Positions 3,321 to 21,996 of a stretch of 32,160 bases of DNA are shown piece after piece (the first letter of the stretch is position 1; every line of letters starts with the position of its first letter). Made by a program: the position numbers and the translations under genes. This stretch comes from Promethearchaeota archaeon (lineage in GTDB: Archaea > Asgardarchaeota > Odinarchaeia > Odinarchaeales > JBHLKK01). Under the pieces are notes generated by a model. The model saw only the letters and a list, made by a program, of their open reading frames with translations. It was not told the DNA's origin and ran no database searches. Where the stretch lies: the NCBI GenBank assembly GCA_048939565.1, contig JBHLPJ010000002.1, positions 1-32,160 of the forward strand, written 5' to 3'.

Positions 3321-3417
3321 AGTAATTCTCCCAAAAAACAGTTGAAAAATCTTAAATATTAGTGGTAGATATTACTGTTTGCTTCGGGTCTCGTACACGA
3401 GAAAGAGGCGACCAAAA

Positions 3418-3744
3418 ATGAGTTTAATACTTGCCGTTCCTATTGCATTTGTGATTTGTCTGATAGTAGTTGGAATACTCTATCTTTTTGGTAGAAAAAT
3501 GGCCCCTCCAAGTAGAAAAAAGGGGGAAGCTGTGTTAACCTATGCTTGCGGTGAAGATATGGATCAAGAGAAAATCCAATTCAGAATTAACTGGCTATAC
3601 TATGCAATATATTTCGTTATCTTCGACATCATTGCTTTTACGCTTTCTCTATCCATTCAACTTGGGGTCTTTGAATCAGCACTAATGGCAGTAGCTTACT
3701 CCTTTATTTCCCTTGTAGCGATACTCGTACTCCTAAGACGATAG
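3418..3744 (+). CDS. NuoA(ND3)-like small membrane subunit of a group-4 hydrogenase / complex-I-like module
   Basis: Three predicted TM helices. The YACGED motif corresponds to YECG in NuoA, and YYAIYFVIFDIIAF corresponds to the NuoA A..F..FD.E motif. I prefer the ATG at 3418, preceded by AGAGG, over the track's TTG at 3379. Confidence 0.65.
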   Translation: MSLILAVPIAFVICLIVVGILYLFGRKMAPPSRKKGEAVLTYACGEDMDQEKIQFRINWLYYAIYFVIFDIIAFTLSLSIQLGVFESALMAVAYSFISLVAILVLLRR

Positions 3745-3757
3745 AGGTGAAAGAAGA

Positions 3758-4210
3758 ATGGGGTTACTTAAAAGATTGGTTGACTGGTCAAGGCGTAAAT
3801 CACCTTGGCTCCTCCACTTCAATGCTGGAAGCTGCAATTGCTGTGATATAGAAATCCTGGCTGCTCTGATGCCTCGATTCGACATAGAACGGTTTGGGGC
3901 TCTTCTTAAGGCCAGTCCGAGACATGCTGATGTACTCGTATGCACAGGACCTGTTACATTGCAGCAGGCAAAGCGTCTAAAAAGGATTTATGAGCAGACG
4001 CCAGATCCAAAGTTTGTAATGGTAGTAGGTACATGTGGAAGTACGGGTGGGGTCTTTAGAGGCTGTTATCATACTCATCAAGGAATTGATAATATTATTC
4101 CGGTTGATGTTTACGTTCCCGGCTGCCCTGCAAGACCTGAATCTATACTATTCGGGGCTGTAAGGTTACTTCAGAAATTGGAGGCAGTCCAAAAAGGTGA
4201 AAGTACATGA
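3758..4210 (+). CDS. Group-4 [NiFe]-hydrogenase small subunit / NuoB-like [4Fe-4S] subunit
   Basis: GSCNCCDIE, GTCGSTGG and VPGCPARPE cluster-ligand motifs, 150 aa. GAGGTGA Shine-Dalgarno sequence. Its stop overlaps the next start (ATGA). Confidence 0.9.
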   Translation: MGLLKRLVDWSRRKSPWLLHFNAGSCNCCDIEILAALMPRFDIERFGALLKASPRHADVLVCTGPVTLQQAKRLKRIYEQTPDPKFVMVVGTCGSTGGVFRGCYHTHQGIDNIIPVDVYVPGCPARPESILFGAVRLLQKLEAVQKGEST

Positions 4211-5940: not shown

Positions 5941-5943
5941 GAC

Positions 5944-6990
5944 ATGGTTTTGGAAGCTATCCTCGACATACTTCAAATCTTGCTTTTCCCAGGAATATTC
6001 TTCTGTCTCGCTTTAGCACTCTTTTACTCGTGGATAGACAGGAAATATCATGCCGATCTTCAGAACCGAATGGGACCGACATATACCGGGTGGCGAGGGA
6101 TACTTCAGCCTTTTGCAGACTTCATAAAGCTCATGGCCAAAGAAGATATCACTCCGGCAGCAGCCGATAGGAGGAGTTTCGCTGCTGTACCAATTATCCT
6201 GCTGGCGGTTCCTCTCACTGCTCTTCTTCTGATACCGATTAGCAGCGCAGCCGGAATAATTAGCTTCCCTGGTGACATTGTATTTCTGATGTTCTTATCA
6301 ACCATAATTGCGATTCTTATCTTTCTTGGCGGATGGTTTTCAACGAATGTATTCAGTGACATTGGAGCTACAAGAGCTGTCCTGCAGCTGATTGGATATG
6401 AGATACCTTTTATGATAGCCGTGTTCTCTCCGGCTATTCTGGCTGGTTCACTTACACTTGCACAGGTTGTTCAGTATCAAGCTGCTAATGGCTGGATGCT
6501 TTTCCAATTCCCAGCTATATATAGGAGTATTCCGATGTGGATTGCCTTTGGCATCTATATGATAGCATTGATGGCCGAACTTGAGAAAATCCCTCTGGAC
6601 ATTCCGGAAGCTGAAACCGAAATCGTTGCTGGATGGCAAACTGAATACTCCGGTAAGAAGTTCGCATTCCTTGTTCTATCAAATGATCTTCACATGCTAT
6701 TCGGTGCAGGCTTAGCTGTAACGTTATTCTTGGGCGGACCTTTCGGGATCGAGAAGCTGCCAGGACTGGCCTGGTTGGATGCGTTTATTTCGGCAACACC
6801 TGTAGTCAGAGAAATCTGGTATACAATATGGTTTATACTAAAGACTGCAATAATTGTGCTGATAATTTCAAACATCAGGACTTTGTTTGCACGTTATAGG
6901 GTTGATCAGATGATTCGTGGCTCGTGGAAGTATCTGGCACCACTTGCCTTGGTTCAAGTAATGATAATTCAACTAGTAAGTCTAATTTAA
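5944..6990 (+). CDS. NuoH/HycD/EchB-like polytopic membrane subunit
   Basis: N-terminal DRKYHADLQNRMGPTYTGWRGILQPFADFIKLMAKED matches the NuoH family signature (RK..A..Q.R.GP...G..G.LQ..AD..KL..KE). About 8 hydrophobic segments. Confidence 0.9.
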   Translation: MVLEAILDILQILLFPGIFFCLALALFYSWIDRKYHADLQNRMGPTYTGWRGILQPFADFIKLMAKEDITPAAADRRSFAAVPIILLAVPLTALLLIPISSAAGIISFPGDIVFLMFLSTIIAILIFLGGWFSTNVFSDIGATRAVLQLIGYEIPFMIAVFSPAILAGSLTLAQVVQYQAANGWMLFQFPAIYRSIPMWIAFGIYMIALMAELEKIPLDIPEAETEIVAGWQTEYSGKKFAFLVLSNDLHMLFGAGLAVTLFLGGPFGIEKLPGLAWLDAFISATPVVREIWYTIWFILKTAIIVLIISNIRTLFARYRVDQMIRGSWKYLAPLALVQVMIIQLVSLI

Positions 6991-6994
6991 GAAG

Positions 6995-7387
6995 GTGATG
7001 TTATTGCCTTTCCCTGGAGCTATGCAAGGTGAACTGTTGAAGCATCTTACTAAGAAGAGAGCAACTGTGCTTTATCCGTTTGAGAAGTTGGAGCTGGCTG
7101 AAGCGTATAGGGGTCGATGGTCTCATAACATGGCCAAATGTACTGGTTGTGGTCTTTGTGCAAAAGACTGTCCGAGCGAAGCCATACAGCTGGTTCAGAC
7201 CGATATAACTCCTGGTGGCAGGTATCCTGTCTGCTATTTGAGTCGATGTATGTTCTGTGCTCAATGTGAAGATACTTGCCCGACAGGTGCTATCCAACTC
7301 ACAAATGAATATGAGCTTGCTGATTATCAGAAGAGAATCATCGACAGCGCCGAACCTGAAGGATTTAGATACGAAGAAAGTAAATAA
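6995..7387 (+). CDS. NuoI/HycF/EchF-like 2x[4Fe-4S] ferredoxin subunit
   Basis: Two cluster motifs, CTGCGLCAKDCP and CMFCAQCEDTCP. GAAGGTGA RBS; the start is GTG 6995 or ATG 6998. Confidence 0.85.
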   Translation: MMLLPFPGAMQGELLKHLTKKRATVLYPFEKLELAEAYRGRWSHNMAKCTGCGLCAKDCPSEAIQLVQTDITPGGRYPVCYLSRCMFCAQCEDTCPTGAIQLTNEYELADYQKRIIDSAEPEGFRYEESK

Positions 7388-7512
7388 ATTAATTATTTCC
7401 TTATTTATTCTTATATTCGTCTCACATTTATCCATATCTTTTCAGTATTCTTTCTGTTAAGTAAATAAAACAAGATTATTGATTCCTACCTATTCTTTTT
7501 TGTTTTCAGAAA

Positions 7513-7539
7513 GATTTAAAAGAAACAAGCATAAATACT
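7513..7539 (+). promoter_or_regulatory. Candidate BRE/TATA region for the histone gene
   Basis: A/T-rich TATA-like elements GATTTAAAAG (7513-7522) and CATAAATACT (7530-7539), 40-70 nt upstream of ATG 7581 and upstream of the GGAGG RBS at 7568-7572. Judged by eye only. Confidence 0.3.
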
Positions 7540-7580
7540 AAGTGCAAATGGTTTAGTATATTAAATCGGAGGATAAAAAA

Positions 7581-7802
7581 ATGGCTACAAAGTTAACGAA
7601 TGCTCGTGTCGAGAGAATAATGAGGGAGACAGGGAAGAAGGAAGGAATTCCTCGTGTTTCAGCGGATGCAGTTGTTTCGATGAATGATGCTGCGACCAAA
7701 TTCATTCGTAGCATCTGTGCAGTTGCAGCTGGTCTGGCAAAGAAGGATAGACGTAAGACCGTCTTACCGCGAGACATCGATCAAGCTGTAAAACAAGCAT
7801 AA
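7581..7802 (+). CDS. Archaeal histone (HMf / CBF-NF-Y histone-fold family)
   Basis: 73 aa with a histone-fold pattern: L..ARVERIMRE.G...RVSADAV......A..FI......A...A....RKTVLPRDIDQAVK. The RKT...DI..AV signature matches HMfB-type histones. Confidence 0.85.
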   Translation: MATKLTNARVERIMRETGKKEGIPRVSADAVVSMNDAATKFIRSICAVAAGLAKKDRRKTVLPRDIDQAVKQA

Positions 7803-8040: not shown

Positions 8041-8601
8041 ATGCTACTAAACACTGAGCTGTTCAAGGTAATTGTCACTGGAGAGGGTGGTGTTGGAAAA
8101 ACCTGCCTTGTTCAGCGTTATACTAGCGGTAACTTTTATCACACAAGGACGACCATCGGAGTAGGATTTGCCACAGCTGATGTTAATCTCAATGGAAGAG
8201 ACATAAAACTCCAGATTTGGGACTTCGGTGGTGAAGAACGTTTTAGAAGACTTCTTCCCTCTTTCTGCAAAGGAGCAAGTGGAGCATTAGTTCTATTTGA
8301 CTTGACAAGATTTCCTACTTTTCTTCATCTCAACGAATGGTTGGATCTCATAAGAGATAACACCAACAATATACCGCTGGTCCTCGTGGGATCAAAGGCC
8401 GATCTTACGAACATGAGAGTTGTTGGCAGAGAAGAGATCGCCGACCTGATGAATAAATACAATATCGAACACTATTACGAAGTCTCATCGAAAGATGGAA
8501 TCAACACAGAGGTGGTTTTTACTCGAATTGCTAAACTAATAGTTAACTCATTTGAGACCAGCAACACGAATAATGAACACGGGATAATAAGCATACAATA
8601 G
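8041..8601 (+). CDS. Small GTPase, Rab/Ras-like
   Basis: G1 GEGGVGKT, switch-I region TIGVGF (Rab-type IGVDF), G3 WDFGGEERF, G4 GSKAD, G5 SSK. 186 aa with no C-terminal Cys prenylation motif. Confidence 0.9.
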   Translation: MLLNTELFKVIVTGEGGVGKTCLVQRYTSGNFYHTRTTIGVGFATADVNLNGRDIKLQIWDFGGEERFRRLLPSFCKGASGALVLFDLTRFPTFLHLNEWLDLIRDNTNNIPLVLVGSKADLTNMRVVGREEIADLMNKYNIEHYYEVSSKDGINTEVVFTRIAKLIVNSFETSNTNNEHGIISIQ

Positions 8602-8611
8602 GAGGTATAAG

Positions 8612-9598
8612 TTGTTGAGCGTTACTGATCAAAGCTTCTTGGAGACCAAGCAGCCTGTTATATGTGATATCTGCGGTGAGAAGTTTAATATTAAAATTGA
8701 AAAAGAATATCTTAACGATGTCAAGCGTTTTCCGTTCTCTTACACGTTTGTACATGGAGCACCACCACATGCAGTTGTAGTATATCTTGATAAGGATCTG
8801 AATGTTAGAGGAACTGAGACATCTGATCTGACAAGCATAAAAAGCGGTGAACTAAATACTCCCGCTGTAGATATTACGCCTGATACTCGTCCTATTCTTT
8901 CAAAAAGGGACATCGGAAAGTTGGAAATGGACGGCGATACTGTTTTTATACTTCGAGAGATTGACGGTGAGCTTACAGTTAAGGAAATCGCTGAGAAAAC
9001 CAAAATGGACATAGACAAGGTATGCCAGAAAGTCCAGTATTTAGTTGACTCTGGCGTGCTAATGCCGCTGTTACCTATTGACCTCTGTAATGTGGATTAC
9101 CATCGGATTTACGAGCTCATACCGCCATATAATACAAACAATGTAACCATGACTGCAGGTGCCCAGAGAAGTTCTGCAACCTGCACAATTCTCAGCAACC
9201 TTGACAAGGACTACACTGTTCTGGAAATCGCTCGAGGCCTTGAAAAGGCTGGCTTTGATAAATCTCCCAAAGACGTCCTTGAGACTTTGGAATACTTCGA
9301 GGCTAGGGATGTGGTTCGAGTAAAAGGCCTGACTAAGATTGATATACCTGAGGAATGGAACGATCCTATATTCAATCAAGTACCAAGATTTGCAGACGGT
9401 ATAGAAGAAGAAAGCATACTCAAGAAGGTACCAATTCCAGACAAAACACACTATTTCATTATCAAGAATATTGGAAGAAGGAGTATACTCGATACCACAT
9501 TAGGCTTAATAGGACTTGGCATAGAGACAAATCCTAGAAGGGTACTAGAAATCATAAGGAAGTATCAAAAGCAAGGCTTGGTATATGCCACATTCTAG
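8612..9598 (+). CDS. Hypothetical protein: N-terminal C-x2-C-x26-H-x4-H domain followed by three winged-helix-like repeats
   Basis: TTG start 11 nt after the GTPase stop, preceded by GGAGGT. N-terminal segment CDICGEKF...YTFVHGAPPHAVVVYLDKDLNVRG. Three helix-rich segments of about 55 aa each end in a beta-hairpin-like motif: ...LVDSGVLMPL, ...EARDVVRVKG and ...QKQGLVYATF. No family recognised. Confidence 0.7.
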   Translation: MLSVTDQSFLETKQPVICDICGEKFNIKIEKEYLNDVKRFPFSYTFVHGAPPHAVVVYLDKDLNVRGTETSDLTSIKSGELNTPAVDITPDTRPILSKRDIGKLEMDGDTVFILREIDGELTVKEIAEKTKMDIDKVCQKVQYLVDSGVLMPLLPIDLCNVDYHRIYELIPPYNTNNVTMTAGAQRSSATCTILSNLDKDYTVLEIARGLEKAGFDKSPKDVLETLEYFEARDVVRVKGLTKIDIPEEWNDPIFNQVPRFADGIEEESILKKVPIPDKTHYFIIKNIGRRSILDTTLGLIGLGIETNPRRVLEIIRKYQKQGLVYATF

Positions 9599-13184: not shown

Positions 13185-14057
13185 TCATATGCCATCTTTT
13201 GACAGGACACCCTCTATAAGCTCCAAACTAAAGCTAAGAGCTTTAACTGAATGGGTTAAGCTTCCCATCGATATCACATCAACACCTGTTGCAGCATACT
13301 CGTCGACGTTTTCGAATGTAATCCCTCCCGATGCTTCAATAGTGACCTTTTCCCTCAATCCTTGATTCTTTAGTTCATACATGGTTTGTCTAATCTGATC
13401 CGGCTTCATGTTATCTAACATAATTATGTCTGCCTTAGCTTTAGCAGCCTTCAAACAATCTTCGGTATTCTCGACCTCAATCTCTACTTTCTTGGAGAAG
13501 CTAGCCTTGCCTCGAGCGACTCCTATCGCAGTTTCGACATCTCCAACGAGAGCAAGATGGTTATCTTTAATCAATATGCAATCATCTAGCCTGAATCTAT
13601 GCGTGTCTCCACCTCCAATCTCTGCGGCCCGTTTATCAAAGTATCTGAGAAGAGGGGCTGTCTTTCTGGTTACGGCAATCCGAATCCCCGGGTTCATCTT
13701 CCTTGCTTTTTCGATGGTTCTGCTAATTGCAGTAGCTATTCCGCTCATTCGCATAAGGAAATTGAGGGCGGTCCGCTCACAGGTAAGTATGGCTTTCGCG
13801 GATCCTTCAATAATCATAACGGTTGTTCCCTTTTTTTCAACCTTATCGCCATCATTCATTTTGGGAGTGACTTCTAATCCCATCTGCTCAAAAATGGTTT
13901 TTGCCTCTCTAATTCCGGCCACAACACCGATCTCTTCAGCTACTATTCTGGCTTTACTCCGCTGATCTCCAATCAGAATTTCTGTTGTTATGTCGCCAAA
14001 CCCTACATCCTCATTTAGAGCGTGAATAACTCTCTCCTCAAGATCGAAAGCCTTCAA
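13185..14057 (-). CDS. nadC: Nicotinate-nucleotide pyrophosphorylase (quinolinate phosphoribosyltransferase)
   Basis: ALNEDVGFGDITT, ERTALNFL..MSGIAT, TRKT.P, KDNH and MLDN motifs. Confidence 0.9.
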   Translation of the reverse strand: MKAFDLEERVIHALNEDVGFGDITTEILIGDQRSKARIVAEEIGVVAGIREAKTIFEQMGLEVTPKMNDGDKVEKKGTTVMIIEGSAKAILTCERTALNFLMRMSGIATAISRTIEKARKMNPGIRIAVTRKTAPLLRYFDKRAAEIGGGDTHRFRLDDCILIKDNHLALVGDVETAIGVARGKASFSKKVEIEVENTEDCLKAAKAKADIIMLDNMKPDQIRQTMYELKNQGLREKVTIEASGGITFENVDEYAATGVDVISMGSLTHSVKALSFSLELIEGVLSKDGI

Positions 14058-14990
14058 TCACGACAACTCCAACATACGTTCTATGGCCATTCTTGCCTTA
14101 ACTGCAATCTTATCAGGAACTTTGACTACGGGGGATTTATTCTTCAATGCAAGAAAAACCTTCTCCAATGTGATATGTTTCATTTGCCTGCATACAGCTT
14201 CTTCATTGGCACAGATAAAGGTCTTGCCAGGTATTTCACGTCTCATTCTTTCAATCAATCCAATCTCAGTAGCAACTATGAATTCCTTAGAAACCGATTC
14301 TTGAGCATGTTTGTACATTTGACCAGTACTACCAACGAAATCTGCTGCTTTTTGGATCTCCGGGTCACATTCGGGGTGAACCATAAACTCTGCCTGTGGA
14401 TATTGCTCCTTCTTCATAACGGATTCCCCGCCAAACATCATATGGACGTAACAGTACCCGTCTCTGGGAATAGGTATTATCTCCTTCTCTGAGACTTTGC
14501 TTTGAACATACCAAGCCAAATTCTTATCGGGTCCAAAGAGAATCTTATCTGAATCGAGCTTTCTCACAACATCTACCGCGTTGGCTGACGTACACATGAT
14601 ATCCGCTTCAGCCTTCGCTTCTGCCAGTGTGTTAACGTAAAGAACAACAACAGCATCCGGATGTTGTTTCTTTGCTTCAACTACCTTCTCTGCAGTAAGC
14701 ATAGCAGCCATAGGACACCTCGCCTCTATTGCTGGCAAAATCACTCTTTTGCTTGGGTTAAGAATTGAAGCAGTCTCAGCCATGAAATCGACTCCGCAAA
14801 AGACAATGTAATTTGCATCTTCGACTTCGGTGGCCTTGATTGAAAGCTGAAGGGAATCCCCCATGAAATCTGCTATCTCCTGTATCTCAGTTACCTGATA
14901 GTTGTGGACCAGCATTACGGCATTATCTCTTTTTCTTAGTTCCAGTGTATTCCTCTGTAACTTATTTAGCGGGAACATGGTGATCGCCAA
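14058..14990 (-). CDS. nadA: Quinolinate synthase
   Basis: VHNYQ...IQEIADF.GDSL, FCGVDFMAETA and a conserved Cys pattern. Directly abuts nadC. Confidence 0.9.
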   Translation of the reverse strand: MAITMFPLNKLQRNTLELRKRDNAVMLVHNYQVTEIQEIADFMGDSLQLSIKATEVEDANYIVFCGVDFMAETASILNPSKRVILPAIEARCPMAAMLTAEKVVEAKKQHPDAVVVLYVNTLAEAKAEADIMCTSANAVDVVRKLDSDKILFGPDKNLAWYVQSKVSEKEIIPIPRDGYCYVHMMFGGESVMKKEQYPQAEFMVHPECDPEIQKAADFVGSTGQMYKHAQESVSKEFIVATEIGLIERMRREIPGKTFICANEEAVCRQMKHITLEKVFLALKNKSPVVKVPDKIAVKARMAIERMLELS

Positions 14991-14993
14991 TAA

Positions 14994-15839
14994 TCAAGTT
15001 CCAATCTGTACGTGTTCACCAATTTTTCTTAATGTCCTTACAACTGAGAGTGCTGCAAGATAGCTTGTCTTGGGATTGTATGAAGAAGGTACGTTCTCTA
15101 CATGGGTCTTTATGGTACCAAAGTCCCCTTTTGCGGTAATCTCATGCACGTTTTTATGTACCGTTGGATCTGCGACTATTCTGACCCTCGTTCTTTTGGC
15201 CCCAATCCCTGCCAAGCTCAAAACCGCAGCAACATTAATGTTCTTTGGAAACGTTCTTGCGGCCTCTTCTGCATTCCCCTCATAAACTACGGTTGGCCTT
15301 TTGATTGAGTCCAGATTAATCTCATGTCGAACGATATAGGGTGCTCCTTTGAGCGCATCAGGATGCTTTCGTGTTGTCAACGTCACTTCGGTAAGATTAG
15401 CAGTCGAAGAAGACTTAACTCCATCCAAACCAGCTAATGCTCCAGACGGGAGATAGACCATCCTATCATTTCTCTCTGCGGTTTTTTCGATCTCTTCAAG
15501 TAACTTTCTATCTACTAGAGCTCCTATGCTTAGTATTAAAAGGTCCTTGCCTGAGTTAAGAATTTTGATTGCATGTTTTCTAACAACTTCCTGAGACGCT
15601 GCTTCTATGATCAGATTAATCCGGTCGCTTTCGATAAGTTCCTCTGGTCTTTCAGCTACTTTGGGTTTTTTGGCCATTCTCTGAATACACTTCTCAGCGT
15701 TCTCCTTCAGTAGATCATAAACCATCACTAGTTCTGTATCCCCTGCTCTGCCGTCTTTGATTGCATCAGAAATGATATTCCCGATTGCCCCACACCCAAT
15801 CAATCCCACTTTGAGTTTCGCCATCTCTTCCGCCAGCAA
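14994..15839 (-). CDS. nadX: L-aspartate dehydrogenase
   Basis: Rossmann motif VGLIGCGAIG. The C-terminal PSGALAGLDG...FPKNINVAA...IVADP....N.H.I...G.FG......EN.PS..NPKTS matches my memory of Thermotoga TM1643. The likely true start is ATG 15824. Confidence 0.88.
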   Translation of the reverse strand: MLAEEMAKLKVGLIGCGAIGNIISDAIKDGRAGDTELVMVYDLLKENAEKCIQRMAKKPKVAERPEELIESDRINLIIEAASQEVVRKHAIKILNSGKDLLILSIGALVDRKLLEEIEKTAERNDRMVYLPSGALAGLDGVKSSSTANLTEVTLTTRKHPDALKGAPYIVRHEINLDSIKRPTVVYEGNAEEAARTFPKNINVAAVLSLAGIGAKRTRVRIVADPTVHKNVHEITAKGDFGTIKTHVENVPSSYNPKTSYLAALSVVRTLRKIGEHVQIGT

Positions 15840-15968: not shown

Positions 15969-16814
15969 TTATTCTAAGATTATCCTCTCCAAGAGTTCCA
16001 AAAGACTATTTCGTTGAGCTTTCTCTATTGCTACCAAGCCGTAGGTCTTGATACCGAGTACCTCTTCAATTTCTTCAGGAGGGAGCGCGTTCCCGCGATC
16101 CTGTTTGTTCGCAACTCCTATGATTTTTGCATATGGAGCCTTGCTCTTAACCAGCGGGAGGATTTTTTCTTTTGTCAACTTAATATTATCCAGTGTAGAG
16201 TCACAGACTATGGCAATGACTTCTGTTCCTTTAACAAGTATGTCCCAGGCAGCCATGAACTGCTCCTGACCTGCAAAGTCAAATATCATGACATAGTAGA
16301 CTCCTACAGTAACTGTAAGCGGTTCTCTATCGGCGAAGATTGTGGGAACATATTTCATTGGAATTTCTTCTTTTCTCAAGAGGCGAAGTATGGTCGTCTT
16401 CCCGACGCCGCCAAATCCAACCAAAGATAGCTTCACCGGAAGCTTGCTTATGATATCAATCACTTCGTTGTTAAATCCATCGCTTAGCTGGGAGCCGTTC
16501 TCAATCTGATTCTCGACCCCAAACTTCTTAATAAATGAGGTTGTTATTTGCAGCAAAATATCCTGAACTTCTCGTTCTGAATTTGTTCTATCGCTTAGTA
16601 CAGCGAATATGTTGTCGTTTGACTTGAGATAGGAGAAACGAAAACGAACAATGTTTGTGTGTTCGATATTGCCCATTTCCATTCTCTCGGAGGCACCCAA
16701 AATTGTAGGCAGTATTGCGTCCACTGAGATCTCTTTCGATCTTGTGAATGATTTGTGGAAAACCTTACCTCCGACTTTATCTAGTATTAGTACCTCTCGT
16801 ATCAATTGCATCAC
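15969..16814 (-). CDS. Two-domain protein: N-terminal longin/roadblock-like alpha-beta domain fused to an Arf/SR-beta-like small GTPase domain
   Basis: The C-terminal half carries G1 GFGGVGKTT, switch-I T (VPTIF), G3 DFAGQEQF and G4 NKQD (Arf/Sar/SR-beta-type). The N-terminal ~125 aa reads as beta-beta-alpha-beta-beta-alpha (IREVLILDKVGGKVFHKSF ... FRFSYLKSNDNIFAVLSD ... VQDILLQITTSFIKKFG), resembling sigma-adaptin/longin domains. Confidence 0.8.
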   Translation of the reverse strand: MMQLIREVLILDKVGGKVFHKSFTRSKEISVDAILPTILGASERMEMGNIEHTNIVRFRFSYLKSNDNIFAVLSDRTNSEREVQDILLQITTSFIKKFGVENQIENGSQLSDGFNNEVIDIISKLPVKLSLVGFGGVGKTTILRLLRKEEIPMKYVPTIFADREPLTVTVGVYYVMIFDFAGQEQFMAAWDILVKGTEVIAIVCDSTLDNIKLTKEKILPLVKSKAPYAKIIGVANKQDRGNALPPEEIEEVLGIKTYGLVAIEKAQRNSLLELLERIILE

Positions 16815-17083: not shown

Positions 17084-18922
17084 TTGCCCAAAACTGCAAA
17101 ATATATGTTTAAGATAATCACTGTCGGAGATGGAATGGTTGGCAAGACCAGTCTTATCCTACGATTCACTGAAAATACCTTTAGGGAGACCTATAAAAAG
17201 ACCATAGGGGCCGATTTCGCTATTAAGAATGTTGATATTGACGGGATTATAGCTAAACTCCAAATTTGGGATTTAGGCGGTCAGGATACCTTTAAGGATC
17301 TACGCAAGATATTCTATCCTGGAGCACGCGGAGCCGTATACGTTTTCGATGTTACTAACCGACCAACCTTCGAAAATATCAGACACTGGTTTAAGGATAT
17401 AGATTCAGTAGTCGGCGATGTTCCCGGACTATTGGTTGGCAATAAGATAGATCTAGCCAGAGAAGTAAGCTATGAGGAAGGGAAAGAATTAGCAGATGAG
17501 CTAGGTATGGACTATCTCGAGACGAGTGCTAAAACTGGAGAAAAGGTAGTAGATGTTTTTAAGATCATGGCGCGAGTAACAGTCGGCGAGAAAGCCGAAG
17601 AAATTCCTACTGGGGTTCCTTCGGCAATATCTCCAAAAATCCCCGGAATCTCTACAGATACTTCAATTGCCTTGGGTCCGGAAGCTGAACTGGAATCCGA
17701 GATCCCTGCAACACCTGCTGACCTGCTTCCAGCTAAACCAGCAATACTTCCTGACGTTGTTATGGATGTTTATGAGTGGATCGAATCACACAGAGACGAT
17801 TTCGTAGATTTATTGAAACGTCTAATAGGTGCTGATACAACCAATCCTCCTGGACACGAGTTCAGAGCAGCCAGAATAATACTGGAAGAATTACTAAAGG
17901 ATAATATCAGATTCAGGGTTTATGAAAGCGAAAAGGATAGAACAAATGTTGTCAGCTGGTCCGGCAAAACTGAGAGTCCTTCTGTTATGCTGGTCTGCCA
18001 TCACGATGTTGCACCGCAAGTTGAGGGGTGGAAGCATCCGCCGCTTGATGCTCTTGAGAAAGATAGCAGGATATATGGGTTAGGAGCTTGCTGCAGCAAA
18101 GGTCCCCTTGTTTCTGCTCTAATGGCCCTTAGAGCGATTCATGTCCTTAATGTAGAACTTAAAGGACAAGCAATGGTCGTGGCGGCCTCCGATGGACTTG
18201 GAGATGGATCAATTGGATTAAAGCACCTCATAGAAGAGGTAGGACTCGTTCCAAATCATGCCATTGTAGCCAGCCCTACAAACTGCAAAACAATAAGAAC
18301 CGTAGAACTAGAGACATTAGCTTTCAGACTTACCAGCAGAGGAAGAGTGTTTGAACCCTCACTTAAGGACATCAATGCTGCCGAGAAACTCGTCAAGGTG
18401 TTAGCAGGATTCAATGATTCTAATGGAAGCAAATATCCGACGCTCGCCAAATGCTCGATTAACATAAGGGAGATCAGAGGAATGCCTGGTGTTGGCGGCA
18501 TTCCTGAGTGGGCAGAGGCAACTCTAGATATTCGTCATCTATTCAAGGAGAACAACGAAAAGATACTTGACGAGGTTCGAAAATTGATTGATAATACCAA
18601 GATATTGGATTCCGATGTTGACGTGTCCATCGAGCAATTACCCGAACCTCCAAAAATCGCCTCTTCAGTCGATGCTCCTGTCGTAATGGCGGTTCGAGAT
18701 GGTTTATATAATACTGCCAATCAAGAACCCTCTTTCGCCGAAACCAAAGAGAATGTCTTGGCGAAAATCTTGGTTCAAAGTAAAATACCTGTGTGCATAT
18801 TTGGCCCAGGTAATGAAGAGAAGTGCAACAGTCCGAACGAGTATATCGAGATTGATGATATGATCGAGGGTGCTAAGGTTTTTGCTGCATCGATAATTAC
18901 TTTGCTAGGGATTAAAGACTGA
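17084..18922 (+). CDS. Rab-like small GTPase fused through a Pro/Ala-rich linker to an M20 (ArgE/DapE/CPG2-type) metallopeptidase-like domain with degenerate active site
   Basis: GTPase domain (aa 1-168): GDGMVGKTS, TIGADFAIK, WDLGGQD, GNKIDL, ETSAK. Linker: aa ~169-225. M20 domain (aa ~226-612): N-terminal LLKRLIG..T.NPPG, VCHHDVAP, W.HPP, IYGLGACCSKG, FGPGNEEKCNSPNEYIEIDD. TTG start at 17084, with ATG 17105 as an alternative. Confidence 0.85.
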   Translation: MPKTAKYMFKIITVGDGMVGKTSLILRFTENTFRETYKKTIGADFAIKNVDIDGIIAKLQIWDLGGQDTFKDLRKIFYPGARGAVYVFDVTNRPTFENIRHWFKDIDSVVGDVPGLLVGNKIDLAREVSYEEGKELADELGMDYLETSAKTGEKVVDVFKIMARVTVGEKAEEIPTGVPSAISPKIPGISTDTSIALGPEAELESEIPATPADLLPAKPAILPDVVMDVYEWIESHRDDFVDLLKRLIGADTTNPPGHEFRAARIILEELLKDNIRFRVYESEKDRTNVVSWSGKTESPSVMLVCHHDVAPQVEGWKHPPLDALEKDSRIYGLGACCSKGPLVSALMALRAIHVLNVELKGQAMVVAASDGLGDGSIGLKHLIEEVGLVPNHAIVASPTNCKTIRTVELETLAFRLTSRGRVFEPSLKDINAAEKLVKVLAGFNDSNGSKYPTLAKCSINIREIRGMPGVGGIPEWAEATLDIRHLFKENNEKILDEVRKLIDNTKILDSDVDVSIEQLPEPPKIASSVDAPVVMAVRDGLYNTANQEPSFAETKENVLAKILVQSKIPVCIFGPGNEEKCNSPNEYIEIDDMIEGAKVFAASIITLLGIKD

Positions 18923-18987: not shown

Positions 18988-20505
18988 TTGAATGTTATTA
19001 CTGTTGAAGACATGAAGATTGCCGACAGGAATTCCGACTATTTGGGTGTTCCACCTCACATCTTGATGGAAAACGCAGGACGAGGAGTTGCAGATGCCAT
19101 TAACAATACCCATAAGGTTGAAGGCAAGAGAATCGTTATATTCTGCGGCCTGGGAAACAACGGCGGAGACGGATTTGTGGCGGCTAGGCATCTGGCTGGG
19201 TTGGGAGCTACAGTATGCCTTATCCTAATGGGCCATCCTGATCGGATTCGCACCCCTGAAGCCCAAAGGAACTGGAGAATCCTAGATAAGATGCAGCTGA
19301 CCGTTGATAAGGTAATTTGCACAGATTCTTCCGAGGAATCCAAGATTAAGGATCTAGTATCTGATGCGGACATAGTTGTAGATGCCATTCTTGGAACAGG
19401 ATTCTCTGGGAAGCTTAGAGACCCCATCACTGTGGCTGTTGACATAATTAATACTTTCATTGGGTTGAAGGTTGCAGTTGATGCGCCAACAGGAGTAGAT
19501 GCATCTACCGGAAAGATATCTGATCGAGCAGTTGAAGCAGACCTGACAGTAACATTCCACAAAGCTAAACCCGGACTGCTGAAAGCGCAGAAACATGTGG
19601 GTAGACTTACAGTTGCCGGAATCGGCATTCCGCCAGAAGCAGAGATTATCGCAGGACCTGGAGATGTAGGAATGACCCAGAAAAGCCGTAGCCCGCATGC
19701 CAAAAAAGGGGAATTTGGAAAAATCTTGGTTATAGGGGGAGGCAGTTATTATCATGGGGCTCCTACATTTGTGGCCTTCGCGGCCCTTAGAACCGGAGCA
19801 GATCTAGCAATCATTGCTACTCCGAGCAGTGTCGCGGACGCAGTGAGAAGTTTTTCTCCAAACCTAATTGTCCGTAGCCTACCCGGGGATGTTCTTACGG
19901 AGGATGCACTCCCTTCATTGAAGGGACTAATTGATTGGGCATCCTGTGTTGCCATAGGACCTGGCTTGGGTGTTGAGGCAGAAACAGTAGATGCTGTACT
20001 TAAAATTCTTGATCTTATCAAAGAGTCCAACAAGCCAACCCTAGTTGACGCTGATGCAATAAAGGCAATGGCAAAAGAGAAGACCATCTTGAGCGGACTT
20101 CCTGCTGTATTGACACCCCACGCTGGCGAATATACAAAGCTTACTGGCGAAATCCTGCCCCCCTCTGAGGAGCTTCAGAAAAGAATTGGCATAATAATGA
20201 GAACAGCAGGAGAACTTGGTGTAGTTCTGCTTCTTAAGGGGCATGAAGATATTGTTTCTGATGGAAAACGCTACAAGATTAACACTACTGGCAATCCTGG
20301 CATGACTGTGGGAGGTACTGGCGATGTCCTCAGTGGCGTTGCTGCAACATTTCTTTCACAAGGCTCCGATCCATTTAGAGCAGCAGTCTCAGCTGCCTTC
20401 ATAAATGGTCGCGCAGGTGATTTAGCTGTGGACAGACTAGGATATCATATTGTTGCCACGGATGTCATAGAGATGATTCCAAAAGCTATGAAAGAATGCC
20501 TGTGA
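18988..20505 (+). CDS. nnr: Bifunctional NAD(P)H-hydrate repair enzyme (NAD(P)HX epimerase / ADP-dependent dehydratase, YjeF N+C)
   Basis: YjeF_N domain: FCGLGNNGGDGFVAARHL, DAILGTGFSG. Carbohydrate-kinase domain: KG.FGK.LVIGG, GPGLG, TPH.GE, GGTGDVLSG. TTG start preceded by GGGGGGAG. Confidence 0.9.
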   Translation: MNVITVEDMKIADRNSDYLGVPPHILMENAGRGVADAINNTHKVEGKRIVIFCGLGNNGGDGFVAARHLAGLGATVCLILMGHPDRIRTPEAQRNWRILDKMQLTVDKVICTDSSEESKIKDLVSDADIVVDAILGTGFSGKLRDPITVAVDIINTFIGLKVAVDAPTGVDASTGKISDRAVEADLTVTFHKAKPGLLKAQKHVGRLTVAGIGIPPEAEIIAGPGDVGMTQKSRSPHAKKGEFGKILVIGGGSYYHGAPTFVAFAALRTGADLAIIATPSSVADAVRSFSPNLIVRSLPGDVLTEDALPSLKGLIDWASCVAIGPGLGVEAETVDAVLKILDLIKESNKPTLVDADAIKAMAKEKTILSGLPAVLTPHAGEYTKLTGEILPPSEELQKRIGIIMRTAGELGVVLLLKGHEDIVSDGKRYKINTTGNPGMTVGGTGDVLSGVAATFLSQGSDPFRAAVSAAFINGRAGDLAVDRLGYHIVATDVIEMIPKAMKECL

Positions 20506-20642: not shown

Positions 20643-21548
20643 GTGTTAGTAATGATAATCTACGGCGTATCGGATTCTGGTGATCTAGACGAACTAAAGG
20701 GAGATAGACCAATTAAGGATTATTTAGTCAGCGACAGAGTTCTTATTTTAATAGATGATGATTTGAAGAAAATTTGGATATGGAAAGGTAATAGTGCCCC
20801 TGTTCGACAGAAATTTATTAGTGCGCGAGTGGCAAATCAAATAAGACAGGAAAGAGGATTAACCTATAAGACTTTGAGCATTGATGAAGGTGAAGAATCA
20901 CAAGAGTTTCTCGATTCAATTGGAGCCAAACCAAAGAAAGCTCCCCGTCCTGCGCTTCCAGCTGAGCCCAAACCTCCTATGCCCGTTGCAGCTCCCACTC
21001 CTGATCCAACTCCCAAGTCTGCTCCAGCACCGGCTGCTCCAGCTCCCGCGCCAATAGTCAAACAGCCTGAAGCACCAAAAACACCTGCAACCTCAAGAGT
21101 CACTTCGCCCATGCCCTCTCCCACTCCAGCAGTAGTTACGCCTCTTGAAGCAGAAGTAATATCGAAACTTGAAAGAGTCGAAATCCCTCGCGGATATGAA
21201 AGAGAGTTGGTCATCGTTGGCAACGAGGTATATGCAATCACAGAATATCGAACGATTTTCTTGGGGGAGAAAAAGGTTGAAACAAAATTAGAAAAAGCCT
21301 CTAAGCTACCAGAGGGAATATTCTTTGCAGAAGGTTACACACCTAGAGTAATAGTGGACAAAGGTCGCGTTCTGGCTGTGGAATTCTTGAAAACAGGTAA
21401 GGGAGTTGAAGTCCCTGTCAAGGATACTACTCCTCGTTCACTGCGAGATGAAATGAAATTGCATTTGAGCGATCTAGTCGATTTCTTTAAAATCGATATC
21501 CCCAAGAAAGAGAAGAAGCTAAAAAGGGAAAAAAAGGGAAAGAAATAG
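20643..21548 (+). CDS. Gelsolin/cofilin-fold domain protein with Pro-rich linker, unknown C-terminal domain and Lys-rich tail (1DGelX-like architecture)
   Basis: In aa ~5-95, SDRVLILIDDDLKKIWIWKGNSAPVRQKFISARVANQIRQERGL.YKTLSIDEGEESQEFLDSIG fits the gelsolin-repeat pattern (yil...iyvW.G..as..ek..a...a..i......v.eG.E...F...f). A PxP/AP-rich segment follows (aa ~95-168), then a beta-rich ~120-aa domain and the tail KKEKKLKREKKGKK. Confidence 0.7.
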   Translation: MLVMIIYGVSDSGDLDELKGDRPIKDYLVSDRVLILIDDDLKKIWIWKGNSAPVRQKFISARVANQIRQERGLTYKTLSIDEGEESQEFLDSIGAKPKKAPRPALPAEPKPPMPVAAPTPDPTPKSAPAPAAPAPAPIVKQPEAPKTPATSRVTSPMPSPTPAVVTPLEAEVISKLERVEIPRGYERELVIVGNEVYAITEYRTIFLGEKKVETKLEKASKLPEGIFFAEGYTPRVIVDKGRVLAVEFLKTGKGVEVPVKDTTPRSLRDEMKLHLSDLVDFFKIDIPKKEKKLKREKKGKK

Positions 21549-21603: not shown

Positions 21604-21996
21604 GTGTCATCTGTAAAAATCACTCCTGAAAAAGCAAAAGAATTGGCCAATTATCTTAGTGAGATTACCATGAAAACCGAATTAGAGGCTCTGGCCTGTG
21701 TTACGCGTGAGGGACAACGACTTGCTTTCAAAACTGTTGGCTATGAAGTTGAACCGGATCTAATGTCAGCAATTTCAGCTGCCATGCTTCATGTAGGAGA
21801 GACTGCCGTATCAAGAATGGGCTTTGGAGATCTTTGGGAGGTTATTGTCACAGGAGCGGAGGGCTATATAGTGTTATCTGGAGCGGGAAAGCTGGTCTTG
21901 ATAGGTGCTGGGAGATCTATGACTAGTCTCGGCAATACTGTGAGTGTATTTAGAAATTATGCAAAAATGGTTGCCAATCTGTTTCCTAGCAAGTAA
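21604..21996 (+). CDS. Roadblock/LC7 (MglB-like) domain protein
   Basis: 130 aa. LEALACVTREGQRLAF...DLMSAISAAML..GE....MGFGDLWEVIVTGAEGYIVLSGAGKLVLIGAGRSMTSLGNT follows the Roadblock/LC7 profile. GTG start preceded by AGGGAG. Confidence 0.75.
   Translation: MSSVKITPEKAKELANYLSEITMKTELEALACVTREGQRLAFKTVGYEVEPDLMSAISAAMLHVGETAVSRMGFGDLWEVIVTGAEGYIVLSGAGKLVLIGAGRSMTSLGNTVSVFRNYAKMVANLFPSK

What the first reader, a model, noticed from the sequence alone, without database searches (positions are those of the whole stretch)
17084..18922. Rab-like GTPase covalently fused to a catalytically degenerate M20 metallopeptidase domain
**GTPase part (seen).** A complete Rab-type G domain is present: GDGMVGKTS, TIGADF, WDLGGQD, GNKIDL, ETSAK. 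It is joined by a ~55-aa Pro/Ala-rich linker to a full-length ArgE/DapE/CPG2-like M20 domain.

**M20 part compared with the canonical ligand set as I remember it.** Only the first motif survives (CHHDVAP). The other substitutions are:
- GRGxxDMKG is GLGACCSKG, so the bridging Asp becomes Cys.
- The DEE general-base/ligand motif reads SDGLGDG.
- EPT reads SPT.
- The C-terminal AHxxxE reads CNSPNE.

**Inference.** This predicts a pseudo-peptidase used as a dimerisation, scaffold or ligand-sensing module on a membrane-traffic-type GTPase. I know of no characterised GTPase-M20 architecture. **Caveat:** the alignment was done by eye, and an EE pair (HLIEE) sits ~14 residues downstream of the expected position.
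Basis: partly seen in the sequence, partly recalled or inferred. Interest (0 to 1): 0.85.

Follow-up and report, generated by a model that had tools for sequence, protein, structure and literature searches.

The report
Asgard Rab-like GTPase fused to dead M20 peptidase
A single gene in this Asgard (Hodarchaeota) archaeon joins a working-looking Ras/Rab-type molecular switch to a peptidase-like domain that has lost its catalytic residues; related archaea carry the same fusion with the enzyme intact, partly eroded or fully eroded, which makes it a natural series showing an enzyme becoming a non-catalytic part of a GTPase.

Summary
ORF 17084-18922 (+) encodes 612 aa:
- a Rab-like G domain with all G1-G5 motifs;
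- a disordered Pro-rich linker;
- a full ArgE/DapE-type M20 fold.

The M20 part keeps only one of five metal ligands (H306). The bridging Asp is Cys, the general base and ligand Glu-Glu are Gly-Leu, the other Glu is Ser, and the second His is Asn. The lid His is also lost. "HLIEE" is an ordinary helix, not a shifted catalytic pair.

The gene is not an artefact or a decaying relic. Four Hodarchaeota versions keep the frame and the substituted residues, and dN/dS is about 0.03-0.06 for both domains.

The fusion is not unique:
- Jord/Freyarchaeia orthologues have an intact active site.
- A Jord subgroup is partly eroded.
- Odinarchaeia orthologues have lost every catalytic residue but remain detectably M20-derived.

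In Hod and Odin the gene heads a conserved cluster: fusion, Nnr, 2DGel gelsolin, roadblock.

Most likely it is a GTPase switch that uses an ex-enzyme as a dimerisation or binding platform. That role is inferred, not shown. I found no literature on it. It is a new variant of known kinds, of moderate interest.

The parts
17084..18922 (+). Complete ORF (612 aa plus stop) for the Rab-like GTPase / linker / degenerate M20 fusion protein
   Evidence: Four Hodarchaeota orthologues are collinear. The N-terminus M-PK..KY.FK aligns with the starts of the Frey and Odin orthologues, which supports the TTG start.
17084..17593 (+). Ras-superfamily (Rab-like / Asgard RasL) G domain, aa 1-170, with intact G1 (GDGMVGKTS), switch I Thr40, G3 (DLGGQ, Q67), G4 (NKID) and G5 (SAK)
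   Evidence: Pfam Ras E 5e-51. Best solved relatives are Rab1A/Rab8A and Thorarchaeota Rab 7ezb, E about 1e-42. The G motifs are invariant in all 16 fusion proteins. dN/dS is 0.02-0.05.
17594..17758 (+). Pro/Ala-rich flexible linker, aa 171-225
   Evidence: pLDDT is below 50 for aa 170-210. dN/dS is 0.23-0.42, and there are in-frame indels among the Hod orthologues. The linker is short in Frey/Jord and long in Hod and Odin.
17759..18919 (+). ArgE/DapE-type M20 fold (catalytic subdomain plus lid), aa 226-612, catalytically degenerate
   Evidence: Pfam M20 and M20_dimer above cut-off. NCBIfam TIGR01910 scores 156 bits, below its 217.6 cut-off. Foldseek best matches are DapE 7uoi and ArgE 7rsf, E about 1e-27. 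dN/dS is 0.03-0.06.
18290..18643 (+). Lid / dimerisation subdomain of the M20 fold (about aa 403-520)
   Evidence: Pfam M20_dimer 430-505. Predicted strands and helices E403-419 to H491-508. It holds 5 of the 10 M20-region residues invariant across all fusions (N431, L436, N460, D482, I494). It is the best-conserved M20 part between Hod and Odin (22.5% versus 15-18%).
17996..18016 (+). CHHDVAP: remnant of the HxD motif; H306 is the only metal ligand kept, and D308 is kept
18077..18103 (+). GLGACCSKG: the bridging Asp is replaced by C337 (with C336 beside it)
   Evidence: Both Cys are conserved in four Hod genes across TGC/TGT codon changes.
18188..18208 (+). SDGLGDG: general-base Glu becomes G371 and ligand Glu becomes L372
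18269..18280 (+). ASPT: ligand Glu becomes S397
18344..18364 (+). RVFEPSL: the lid 'AHGS' motif is lost (His becomes E424), with a 2-residue deletion
18803..18844 (+). GPGNEEKCNSPNEY: C-terminal ligand His becomes N582; E586 is kept
18988..20505 (+). Downstream gene 1 of the conserved cluster: bifunctional NAD(P)H-hydrate repair enzyme (YjeF_N + Carb_kinase)
   Evidence: Pfam. It lies immediately downstream of the fusion in Hod (L001, L002, L008) and Odin (L005, L016).
20643..21548 (+). Downstream gene 2: Asgard two-domain gelsolin (2DGel-like), 301 aa
   Evidence: PDB sequence hits: Lokiarchaeota 2DGel 7whg_G at E 4e-9 (two stretches), 2DGel3, and Heimdallarchaeota 2DGel. It is 47% identical to the syntenic Odin gene.
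21604..21996 (+). Downstream gene 3: roadblock/LC7 protein, 130 aa
   Evidence: Pfam Robl_LC7 E 4.5e-4, below cut-off. PDB Robl_LC7 proteins 7f8m_A (E 4e-6) and 9jue_D. It is 71% identical to the syntenic Odin gene and 95% identical within Hod.
15969..16814 (-). Divergently transcribed neighbour: longin-like N-terminus (weak match) plus an Arf/Rag-like GTPase, 281 aa
   Evidence: Pfam Arf E 2e-15. Longin E 0.013 only. It is conserved beside the fusion in Hod (L001, L002, L008) but not in Odin.

Best explanation
The ORF encodes one member of an Asgard-specific orthologous family.

**Anatomy (shown)**
- A nucleotide-competent Ras-superfamily (Rab-like) GTPase is tethered by a flexible linker to an ArgE/DapE-type M20 body.
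- In the Hodarchaeota lineage the M20 body has lost 4 of its 5 metal ligands, its general base and the lid His. It cannot perform canonical di-zinc amidohydrolysis.
- Both domains are under strong purifying selection.
- The substituted residues are themselves conserved.
- The same fusion exists with an intact site (Jord/Freyarchaeia), a partly eroded site (a Jord subgroup) and an obliterated site (Odinarchaeia).

**Mechanism (inferred)**
- The conserved job of the family is centred on the GTPase.
- The M20 body works as a non-catalytic platform. Most likely it is a homodimerisation scaffold acting through the lid subdomain, which is the dimer interface in DapE/ArgE/CPG2-type enzymes. It may also offer a binding surface for partners.
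- This would give a constitutively dimeric G protein. The logic resembles Rag/Gtr GTPases (C-terminal roadblock dimer) or Roco proteins (COR dimer).

**Context (inferred)**
- In Hod and Odin the gene heads a conserved co-directional cluster: fusion, Nnr, 2DGel gelsolin, roadblock.
- The roadblock protein is therefore the best candidate regulator of the G domain (MglB- or Ragulator-like).
- Actin remodelling is a candidate output.
For: **Architecture and fold:**

**Catalytic residues.** The losses are mapped against solved DapE/ArgE and canonical homologues. The protein fails the NCBIfam ArgE/DapE cut-off (156 versus 217.6), whereas the Frey orthologue passes at 280 bits.

**Not a relic**
- dN/dS is 0.02-0.05 for Rab and 0.03-0.06 for M20, against 0.23-0.42 for the linker, with dS from 0.6 to above 2.
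- C305, H307, C336, C337, G371, L372, S397 and N582 are kept in four Hod genes through synonymous codon changes.

**Family series**
- Fusions were found in a scan of 1.84 billion representatives (P0002, P0066, P0079).
- The profile search found 8 Frey/Jord and 5 Odin proteins.
- Among GTDB species genomes there are 2 Hod, 7 Jord/Frey and 1 Odin among the best 80 loci kept.
- Ligand tables show the gradient from intact to eroded.
- The Odin C-terminus alone matches a stand-alone M20 profile end to end: hhalign probability 94%, E 1e-7, 344 columns.

**GTPase-centred constraint.** Across all 16 fusion proteins, 47 of the 57 invariant columns lie in the G domain. Hod versus Odin identity is 56% for Rab and 15-22% for M20.

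**Orthology and context**
- The block fusion / Nnr / 2DGel / roadblock / PGM is collinear between Hodarchaeota and Odinarchaeum yellowstonii, with 29, 47, 47, 71 and 45% identity.
- Gaps between the four co-directional genes are 2-51 nt in Odin.
- Gelsolin and roadblock identities.

**Precedent.** Asgard GTPases fused to longin or roadblock domains are predicted to dimerise like Gtr1/Gtr2 (PMC10933270).
Against: - No dimer model or interface could be computed, because only monomer prediction was available. Dimerisation rests on what is known of M20 enzymes in general.
- The lid subdomain is only marginally better conserved than the rest of the M20 body.
- The intact active site in Jord/Freyarchaeia shows that catalysis does matter in part of the family, so a residual ligand-binding or sensing role in Hod is not excluded.
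- The Hod pocket has been refilled with conserved Cys and His (C305, H306, H307, C336, C337, C581). This could be a new metal or ligand site rather than an empty pocket.
- The gene cluster contains Nnr, which has no obvious link to a GTPase switch. Conserved order could be inherited synteny rather than an operon, and there are no expression data.
- The cluster is absent from Frey/Jord loci.
Confidence: 0.55

Rival explanations
1. Ligand-sensing pseudo-enzyme. The M20 pocket no longer hydrolyses but still binds a small molecule (an N-acyl amino acid or similar) or a protein tail. Occupancy is relayed to the GTPase, giving a metabolite-gated switch.
For: - The ancestor was an ArgE/DapE/LysK-type deacylase. 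The Frey orthologues still have the full site.
- The nearest stand-alone relative, P0003, sits beside a RimK/LysX-type ATP-grasp gene.
- Pocket residues in Hod are replaced but then strictly conserved, and H306, D308, K339 and E586 are retained.
Against: - Odin orthologues share the same gene cluster but have deleted about 23 residues of the metal/substrate loop and lost all pocket residues. A pocket-dependent function therefore cannot be the family-wide one.
- No ligand can be inferred.
- The lid His and the GG..N substrate-binding motif are also gone in Hod.
Confidence: 0.2
2. Still an enzyme. The Hod M20 domain uses a re-tooled Cys/His (mono-metal or thiol) centre to catalyse a different reaction, and the GTPase regulates it.
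For: - C336-C337 replace the bridging Asp region.
- C305-H306-H307 and C581 line the former site, and all are conserved through synonymous changes.
- The fold is confidently predicted.
Against: - The general base (Glu to Gly371), two Glu ligands and the second His are all lost, together with the lid His that stabilises the transition state in DapE-type enzymes.
- C305 and C581 are ancestral: they are also present in the canonical relatives P0003 and P0004, so they are not new.
- I know of no precedent for such chemistry in M20.
Confidence: 0.07
3. Neutral relic. The M20 part is a decaying leftover of a once-active fusion with no present function.
For: Catalytic residues are lost progressively across lineages.
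Against: - M20 dN/dS is 0.03-0.06, as low as the G domain and five to ten times lower than the linker. Synonymous divergence is near or at saturation in two of the three Hod comparisons (dS 0.6 to above 2).
- The full-length frame is kept in Hod, Frey/Jord and Odin.
- A complete M20 fold is predicted.
Confidence: 0.03
4. Assembly or sequencing artefact. Two adjacent genes (a Rab and an M20) were joined by a missed stop or frameshift, or by a chimeric contig.
For: None found.
Against: - The same continuous ORF occurs in four independent Hodarchaeota assemblies at 83-91% identity, with in-frame linker indels.
- It also occurs in at least 8 Jord/Frey and at least 5 Odin proteins, including the closed Odinarchaeum yellowstonii chromosome.
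Confidence: 0.01

Closest known systems
Asgard Rab-like / RasL small GTPases (e.g. Thorarchaeota Rab, PDB 7EZB; PMC10933270)
   Same: The G domain is 40-45% identical to Rab1/Rab8 and matches Thor-Rab at E 4e-42. All G motifs are intact. Like Thor-Rab it lacks the C-terminal prenylation cysteines.
   Different: It carries a 440-aa C-terminal extension (linker plus M20 fold). The published survey of Asgard GTPase architectures describes single-domain forms and longin/roadblock fusions, not M20. It has the switch II signature WDLGGQ rather than WDTAGQ.
ArgE/DapE/LysK M20 deacylases (PDB 7uoi, 7rsf, 1vgy, 5xoy; NCBIfam TIGR01910)
   Same: It has the same two-subdomain fold (Foldseek E about 1e-27) and is collinear over the full length. 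The Jord/Frey orthologues of this very fusion are bona fide members by score and residues.
   Different: The window protein keeps 1 of 5 metal ligands and has lost the general base and lid His. It scores below the family cut-off. It is fused to a GTPase.
Rag/Gtr GTPases and Asgard longin/roadblock-GTPase fusions; Roco (Roc-COR) proteins
   Same: The logic is the same: a small G domain permanently attached to a C-terminal domain whose known role elsewhere is dimerisation. A roadblock protein is encoded nearby, as with Rag-Ragulator and MglA-MglB.
   Different: The C-terminal domain is an M20 fold, not a roadblock or COR domain. The G domain is Rab/Ras-like, not Rag-like (the Gtr1_RagA HMM scores only 22.1 bits). 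The resemblance is functional analogy only and is untested.
Clan MH pseudo-peptidases used as binding modules (transferrin receptor, nicastrin, nicalin; M28 family). This comparison rests on my own knowledge and was not tested here.
   Same: In both cases a metallopeptidase fold of the same clan has lost its metal ligands and is kept as a protein-binding or dimeric scaffold.
   Different: Those are M28, eukaryotic and membrane-anchored. This one is M20, archaeal, cytosolic and fused to a GTPase. I found no paper describing an M20 pseudo-enzyme of this kind.

Membership tests
Ras superfamily small GTPase (Pfam PF00071) | HMM score above the gathering threshold, and G1 (GxxxxGK[ST]), switch I Thr, G3 (DxxGQ), G4 (NKxD) and G5 (SAK) all present | tested here: met
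   172.8 bits against a 21.6 cut-off. Motifs lie at aa 15-23, 40, 63-67, 120-123 and 148-150 and are invariant in all 16 fusion proteins.
Eukaryotic Rab family proper | C-terminal prenylatable Cys motif (CC/CxC/CAAX) | tested here: not met
   The G domain is followed by the linker and M20, and the protein ends ...LLGIKD. This is as in Thor-Rab (PMC10933270).
Eukaryotic Rab family proper | Specific phylogenetic sisterhood to eukaryotic Rabs / RabF motifs | not tested
   The best PDB hits are Rab1/Rab8. RabF-like strings are only partly matched (IGADF, KLQIWDLGGQ, FYPGA) by inspection. A published analysis finds no Asgard sequences specifically sister to Rabs (10.1101/2024.02.28.582541).
Peptidase M20 fold family (Pfam PF01546 + PF07687) | HMM scores above the gathering thresholds, and the two-subdomain fold | tested here: met
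   65.9 against 24.6 bits and 34.6 against 21 bits. Foldseek to DapE/ArgE gives E about 1e-27 with TM (target-normalised) about 0.66.
ArgE/DapE family deacylase (NCBIfam TIGR01910) | Whole-protein score at or above the curated cut-off of 217.6 bits | tested here: not met
   The window protein scores 156.1 bits. The Frey orthologue P0215 scores 279.9, P0222 267.5 and the stand-alone P0003 269.7. Odin P0083 gives no hit.
Catalytically active M20 metallohydrolase | Five metal ligands (His, bridging Asp, Glu, Glu, His) plus the general-base Glu | tested here: not met
   Only H306 is retained. The others are C337, L372, S397, N582, and the base is G371. The lid His is also lost (E424).
Dimeric M20 enzymes (DapE/ArgE/CPG2 type) | Homodimer through the lid subdomain | not testable with these tools
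   The lid subdomain is present and confidently modelled, but only monomer prediction was available.
Asgard Rab-M20 orthologous group (defined here) | Full-length collinear alignment G domain / linker / M20 fold, the WDLGGQ switch II signature, and (Hod and Odin) the syntenic cluster with Nnr, 2DGel and roadblock | tested here: met
   collinearity; G domains cluster in an NJ tree, no bootstrap; synteny.
Rag/Gtr GTPases | Rag-type G domain plus a C-terminal roadblock domain | tested here: not met
   Gtr1_RagA scores 22.1 bits over aa 10-104 only, far below the Ras score. The C-terminal domain is M20.

The most novel reading that the evidence does not exclude
The cluster Rab-M20* / Nnr / 2DGel gelsolin / roadblock is a primordial signalling module. 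A dimeric GTPase built on an ex-deacylase senses a metabolite or a protein tail through the remnant M20 pocket or surface. It is switched by the roadblock protein, as MglB or Ragulator switch their GTPases. It then controls actin remodelling through the gelsolin. This would be an archaeal forerunner of nutrient- or polarity-coupled small-GTPase control of the cytoskeleton.
Probability: 0.12. Interest if true: 0.85.

Novelty: new variant of a known kind. Interest (0 to 1): 0.55.

Why it matters
**Open question.** Asgard archaea encode dozens of Ras-superfamily GTPases, and almost none has a known partner or output.

**What this family offers**
1. A natural series from enzyme to pseudo-enzyme inside one fusion: intact in Jord/Freyarchaeia, half-dead in a Jord subgroup, dead in Hodarchaeota and unrecognisable in Odinarchaeia. 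This is well suited to asking how a metabolic enzyme is recruited as a structural module of a signalling protein.
2. A compact gene cluster conserved across two classes. It puts a specific GTPase next to a roadblock protein, which is the fold of GTPase regulators such as MglB and Ragulator. It also puts it next to a gelsolin, whose actin activities are already characterised in Asgard archaea. This yields directly testable hypotheses about pairwise interactions.

**Practical point.** Automatic annotation currently calls the Hod proteins 'M20 metallo-hydrolase' and the Odin proteins 'GTP-binding protein'. These names hide the fact that they are orthologues. They also suggest that the Hod protein is an active hydrolase, which it almost certainly is not.

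Tried and rejected
1. **Is the 301-aa neighbour the DENN protein?** Liu et al. describe a conserved Asgard operon of roadblock, Rab-like GTPase and DENN (10.1101/2020.10.19.343400). I tested whether this neighbour fits. Pfam and NCBIfam gave nothing, and a PDB sequence search shows it is a 2DGel gelsolin. The DENN idea is dropped.\n2. **Are other Asgard 'Rab + ~400 aa' proteins cryptic M20 fusions?** These are the Loki, Thor, Hel and some Odin proteins (L019-L056, P0109 etc.). They form one family with a low-complexity Pro/Glu/Lys tail ending in a CxxC...CxxC zinc ribbon. hhalign shows no similarity to M20. Rejected.\n3. **NJ tree of M20 domains, to ask whether degeneration happened once or several times.** The fast-evolving Hod and Odin branches fall to the base, which looks like long-branch attraction, and the bootstrap run hit the time limit. 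Inconclusive.\n4. **Foldseek of the Odin P0083 model.** The 50 listed matches are all Rab structures, so it says nothing about the C-terminal domain. I replaced it with hhalign of the Odin C-termini against stand-alone M20.\n5. **Last large protein search, using a profile of the degenerate C-termini (A6).** It returned only three known members and missed known Odin ones. It is uninformative about unfused degenerate relatives.\n6. **HLIEE as a shifted catalytic pair.** Rejected by alignment and predicted helix.\n7. **Artefact and pseudogene readings.** Rejected.
Full report
**1.

The ORF finder lists 17084..18922 (+) as an uninterrupted 612-aa frame starting at TTG.

- Pfam places a Ras-family G domain at aa 10-164 (E 5e-51).
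- It places Peptidase_M20 at aa 303-604 (65.9 bits against a gathering score of 24.6).
- The M20 dimerisation (lid) domain is inserted at aa 430-505 (34.6 against 21).

The N-terminal 189 aa match Rab1A, Rab8A, Sec4/Ypt1 and the crystallised Thorarchaeota Rab (7ezb) at E about 1e-42 to 1e-44. The C-terminal 387 aa match solved DapE, ArgE and LysK sequences end to end.

An AlphaFold2 model built on a 53-sequence alignment is confident for both globular parts (mean pLDDT 86.4). It leaves aa 170-210 disordered. Foldseek against the PDB returns DapE (7uoi) and ArgE (7rsf) at E about 1e-27.

**2. The catalytic set is gone**

I used pairwise alignments to DapE/ArgE structures and multiple alignments with canonical homologues. 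The canonical M20 positions read as follows.

| Canonical position | In this protein |
|---|---|
| HxD | C305-H306-H307-D308 (ligand His and the Asp kept) |
| GRGxxDxKG | G-L-G-A-C336-C337-S-K-G (bridging Asp is Cys) |
| DEE | D370-G371-L372 (general base and one ligand lost) |
| EPT | S397-P-T |
| C-terminal H...E | N582...E586 |

Both normally come from the lid: the 'AHGS' His (here E424, with a two-residue deletion) and the 'GG...N' motif (here GMPGVGG).

HLIEE (381-385) aligns with YLLNE/YLIKE in enzymes that have the normal DEE motif 14 residues upstream, and it lies in a predicted helix.

Consistent with this, the protein scores 156 bits against NCBIfam TIGR01910 (ArgE/DapE family deacylase), below the 217.6-bit cut-off.

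**3. It is a real gene under selection**

Close orthologues exist in three other Hodarchaeota assemblies at 83-91% identity:
- P0001 / L001 = L007, GCA_048886745.1;
- P0002 / L002, a Logan assembly;
- L008.

All keep one frame, and the linker carries in-frame indels. Nei-Gojobori estimates are:

| Region | dN/dS |
|---|---|
| G domain | 0.02-0.05 |
| M20 part | 0.03-0.06 |
| Linker | 0.23-0.42 |

Synonymous divergence runs from 0.6 to saturation. The replaced active-site residues are conserved through synonymous codon changes (C305, H307, C336, C337, G371, L372, S397, N582). A frameshift artefact and a decaying relic are therefore both excluded.

**4. The fusion is a family, and the family is a degeneration series**

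*Where it occurs*
- An exhaustive HMMER scan of 1.84 billion cluster representatives returned three fusion clusters among the best 150 listed: Hod (P0002), P0066 (576 aa) and P0079 (581 aa).
- A profile search of the 5.8-billion-protein collection added eight Jordarchaeia/Freyarchaeia proteins of 575-586 aa. NCBI names them 'ArgE/DapE family deacylase'.
- The same search added five Odinarchaeia proteins of 552-581 aa, named 'GTP-binding protein' or 'Rab family GTPase'. One is from the closed Odinarchaeum yellowstonii chromosome.
- A scan of GTDB species genomes kept the best 80 loci. Among them, full-length fusions occur only in 2 Hod, 7 Jord/Frey and 1 Odin species.

*State of the active site*

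| Lineage | State |
|---|---|
| Main Jord/Frey group | Every catalytic and lid residue kept; passes TIGR01910 at 280 bits |
| Jord subgroup (P0222, L013, L015) | Has lost the EPT Glu (GGNT/GGST); P0222 has also lost the general base (DGE) |
| Hod | As described in section 2 |
| Odin | All positions lost, plus about 23 residues of the metal loop deleted; Pfam and NCBIfam no longer recognise M20 |

The Odin C-termini alone still align end to end with a stand-alone M20 profile: hhalign probability 94%, E 1.3e-7, 344 columns. Their AlphaFold model has the same order of secondary-structure elements. That model leans on an alignment containing M20 sequences, and the Foldseek list was filled by Rab hits, so the model is weak support.

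The nearest stand-alone relative, P0003 (34% identity), is fully canonical.

Across all 16 fusion proteins, 47 of the 57 invariant columns lie in the G domain. Hod versus Odin identity is 56% in the G domain against 15-22% in the M20 body. The G domains of the fusions group together in a neighbour-joining tree, together with three short singletons. There is no bootstrap support.

**5. Genomic context**

The window and its Hod relatives share the following order:
- longin-like/Arf-like GTPase (-);
- fusion (+);
- Nnr (YjeF_N + Carb_kinase);
- a 301-aa protein;
- a 130-aa protein;
- PGM (-).

The block from the fusion to PGM is collinear with two Odinarchaeia genomes, at 29, 47, 47, 71 and 45% identity. 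In Odin the four co-directional genes are separated by only 2-51 nt.

- The 301-aa protein is an Asgard two-domain gelsolin: PDB 7whg_G at E 4e-9, and also 7c2h and 7whf.
- The 130-aa protein is a roadblock/LC7 protein: Pfam E 4.5e-4, PDB 7f8m_A at E 4e-6.
- The Jord/Frey fusions, which have the intact enzyme, sit in unrelated neighbourhoods.

So the two lineages with a dead M20 share three things: the long Pro-rich linker, the closest G domains and this cluster. That fits a common origin of the non-catalytic form, but my M20 tree could not resolve the question.

**6. How it most likely works**

*Shown:* a nucleotide-competent G domain, a flexible tether, a complete M20 fold without the canonical chemistry, purifying selection on all of it, and a GTPase-centred pattern of conservation across lineages.

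*Inferred:* the M20 body is kept as a structural platform.
- In DapE/ArgE/CPG2-type enzymes the lid subdomain is the homodimer interface (established knowledge). The simplest reading is therefore a constitutive dimeric GTPase.
- This parallels Rag/Gtr (roadblock CTD), Roco (COR) and the Asgard longin/roadblock-GTPase fusions, which are predicted to dimerise (PMC10933270).
- The adjacent, unusually conserved roadblock protein is the obvious candidate GAP/GEF-like partner.
- The gelsolin suggests a cytoskeletal output.

I put about 0.55 on this overall picture. That breaks down as about 0.9 on 'real fusion with a catalytically dead M20' and roughly 0.45 on 'dimerisation or binding scaffold'.

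*Rivals*
- A ligand-sensing pocket (0.2). This is weakened by the Odin orthologues having no pocket.
- A re-tooled Cys/His catalytic centre (0.07).
- A neutral relic (0.03).
- An artefact (0.01).

**7. Comparison with what is known**

The G domain is a member of the Ras superfamily. It resembles Rab1/Rab8 most, but it lacks prenylation cysteines. By published phylogenies, Asgard 'RasL' proteins are not specific sisters of Rabs. Asgard Rab-likes tested so far showed no membrane targeting. 'Membrane-traffic-type' is therefore not supported.

The C-terminal domain is a member of the M20 fold family but fails the ArgE/DapE functional family both by score and by residues.

Unusual multidomain architectures of Asgard eukaryote-like proteins are a known phenomenon ('extensive domain shuffling'). 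Pseudo-peptidases of the same clan (transferrin receptor, nicastrin) are known from my own knowledge.

Six full-text searches and three papers read found no description of a GTPase-M20 fusion or of an M20 pseudo-enzyme of this kind (papers read). The proteins are in public databases, but only under automatic and mutually inconsistent names.

**8. Verdict**

The finding is a new variant built from known kinds. It is rare: a handful of clusters among billions of proteins, confined to three Asgard classes. It is under selection, and it sits in an informative gene cluster.

It is not categorically new, and its mechanism is inferred. Interest is 0.55.

Noticed in passing
window 20643-21548 (+): A 301-aa protein with no Pfam or NCBIfam hit above threshold is an Asgard two-domain gelsolin (2DGel-like). 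It matches PDB 7whg_G at E 4e-9 in two stretches. It is conserved (47% identity) at the same position in Odinarchaeia.
   Followed up: partly
window 21604-21996 (+): A 130-aa roadblock/LC7 protein is 71% identical between Hodarchaeota and Odinarchaeum and 95% identical within Hod. That makes it far more conserved than its neighbours (29-47%). It is a candidate GTPase regulator.
   Followed up: partly
window 15969-16814 (-): A 281-aa protein has a weak longin-like N-terminus (Pfam E 0.013) and an Arf/Rag-like G domain. It is transcribed divergently from the fusion. This pairing is conserved in Hod loci but not in Odin.
   Followed up: partly
window 8041-8601 (+) and 8612-9598 (+): A second, single-domain Ras-like GTPase (186 aa, Pfam Ras E 2e-40) is followed 10 nt later by a 328-aa protein that has only weak winged-helix hits. 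This may be another GTPase-partner pair. The same pair is present in L001.
   Followed up: no
L019, L021, L023, L025, L027-L029, L031-L034, L038, L045, L049, L054, L056 (match at about 6001 in most): A widespread Loki/Thor/Hel/Odin family of about 540-590 aa has an N-terminal Rab-like domain. This is followed by about 370-440 aa of low-complexity Pro/Glu/Lys-rich sequence ending in a CxxC...CxxC zinc ribbon. It is unrelated to M20 by hhalign.
   Followed up: partly
L006 2392-4152 (P0222); L013 and L015 (match 6001-7704 and 5838-7550): A Jordarchaeia subgroup of the fusion is half-way degenerate. The EPT Glu is replaced (GGNT/GGST), and in P0222 the general base is also lost (DGE). It still passes the ArgE/DapE NCBIfam cut-off.
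   Followed up: partly
window 13185-15839 (-) and 18988-20505 (+); L003 4112-5683 and 9217-9771: NAD-related genes surround the fusion: nadC, nadA and aspartate dehydrogenase upstream, and the NAD(P)HX repair enzyme Nnr immediately downstream. Nnr also lies within 4-8 kb of the canonical stand-alone relative P0003 (beside an isochorismatase-family gene) and of the Frey fusion P0222. This recurring M20-Nnr proximity is unexplained.
   Followed up: no
P0080 (213 aa, from the representatives search): The closest G domain outside Hod (60% identity) is a 213-aa protein with only a 40-aa linker-like tail. It could be a truncated gene call or an unfused orthologue. Its origin could not be looked up.
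   Followed up: no
window 3379-6990 (+): There is a complex-I-like module with NuoA, NuoB, a fused NuoC/NuoD of 577 aa (which also hits the NiFe-hydrogenase large-subunit N-terminus) and NuoH. This is ordinary housekeeping context and shows that the window is chromosomal.
   Followed up: no
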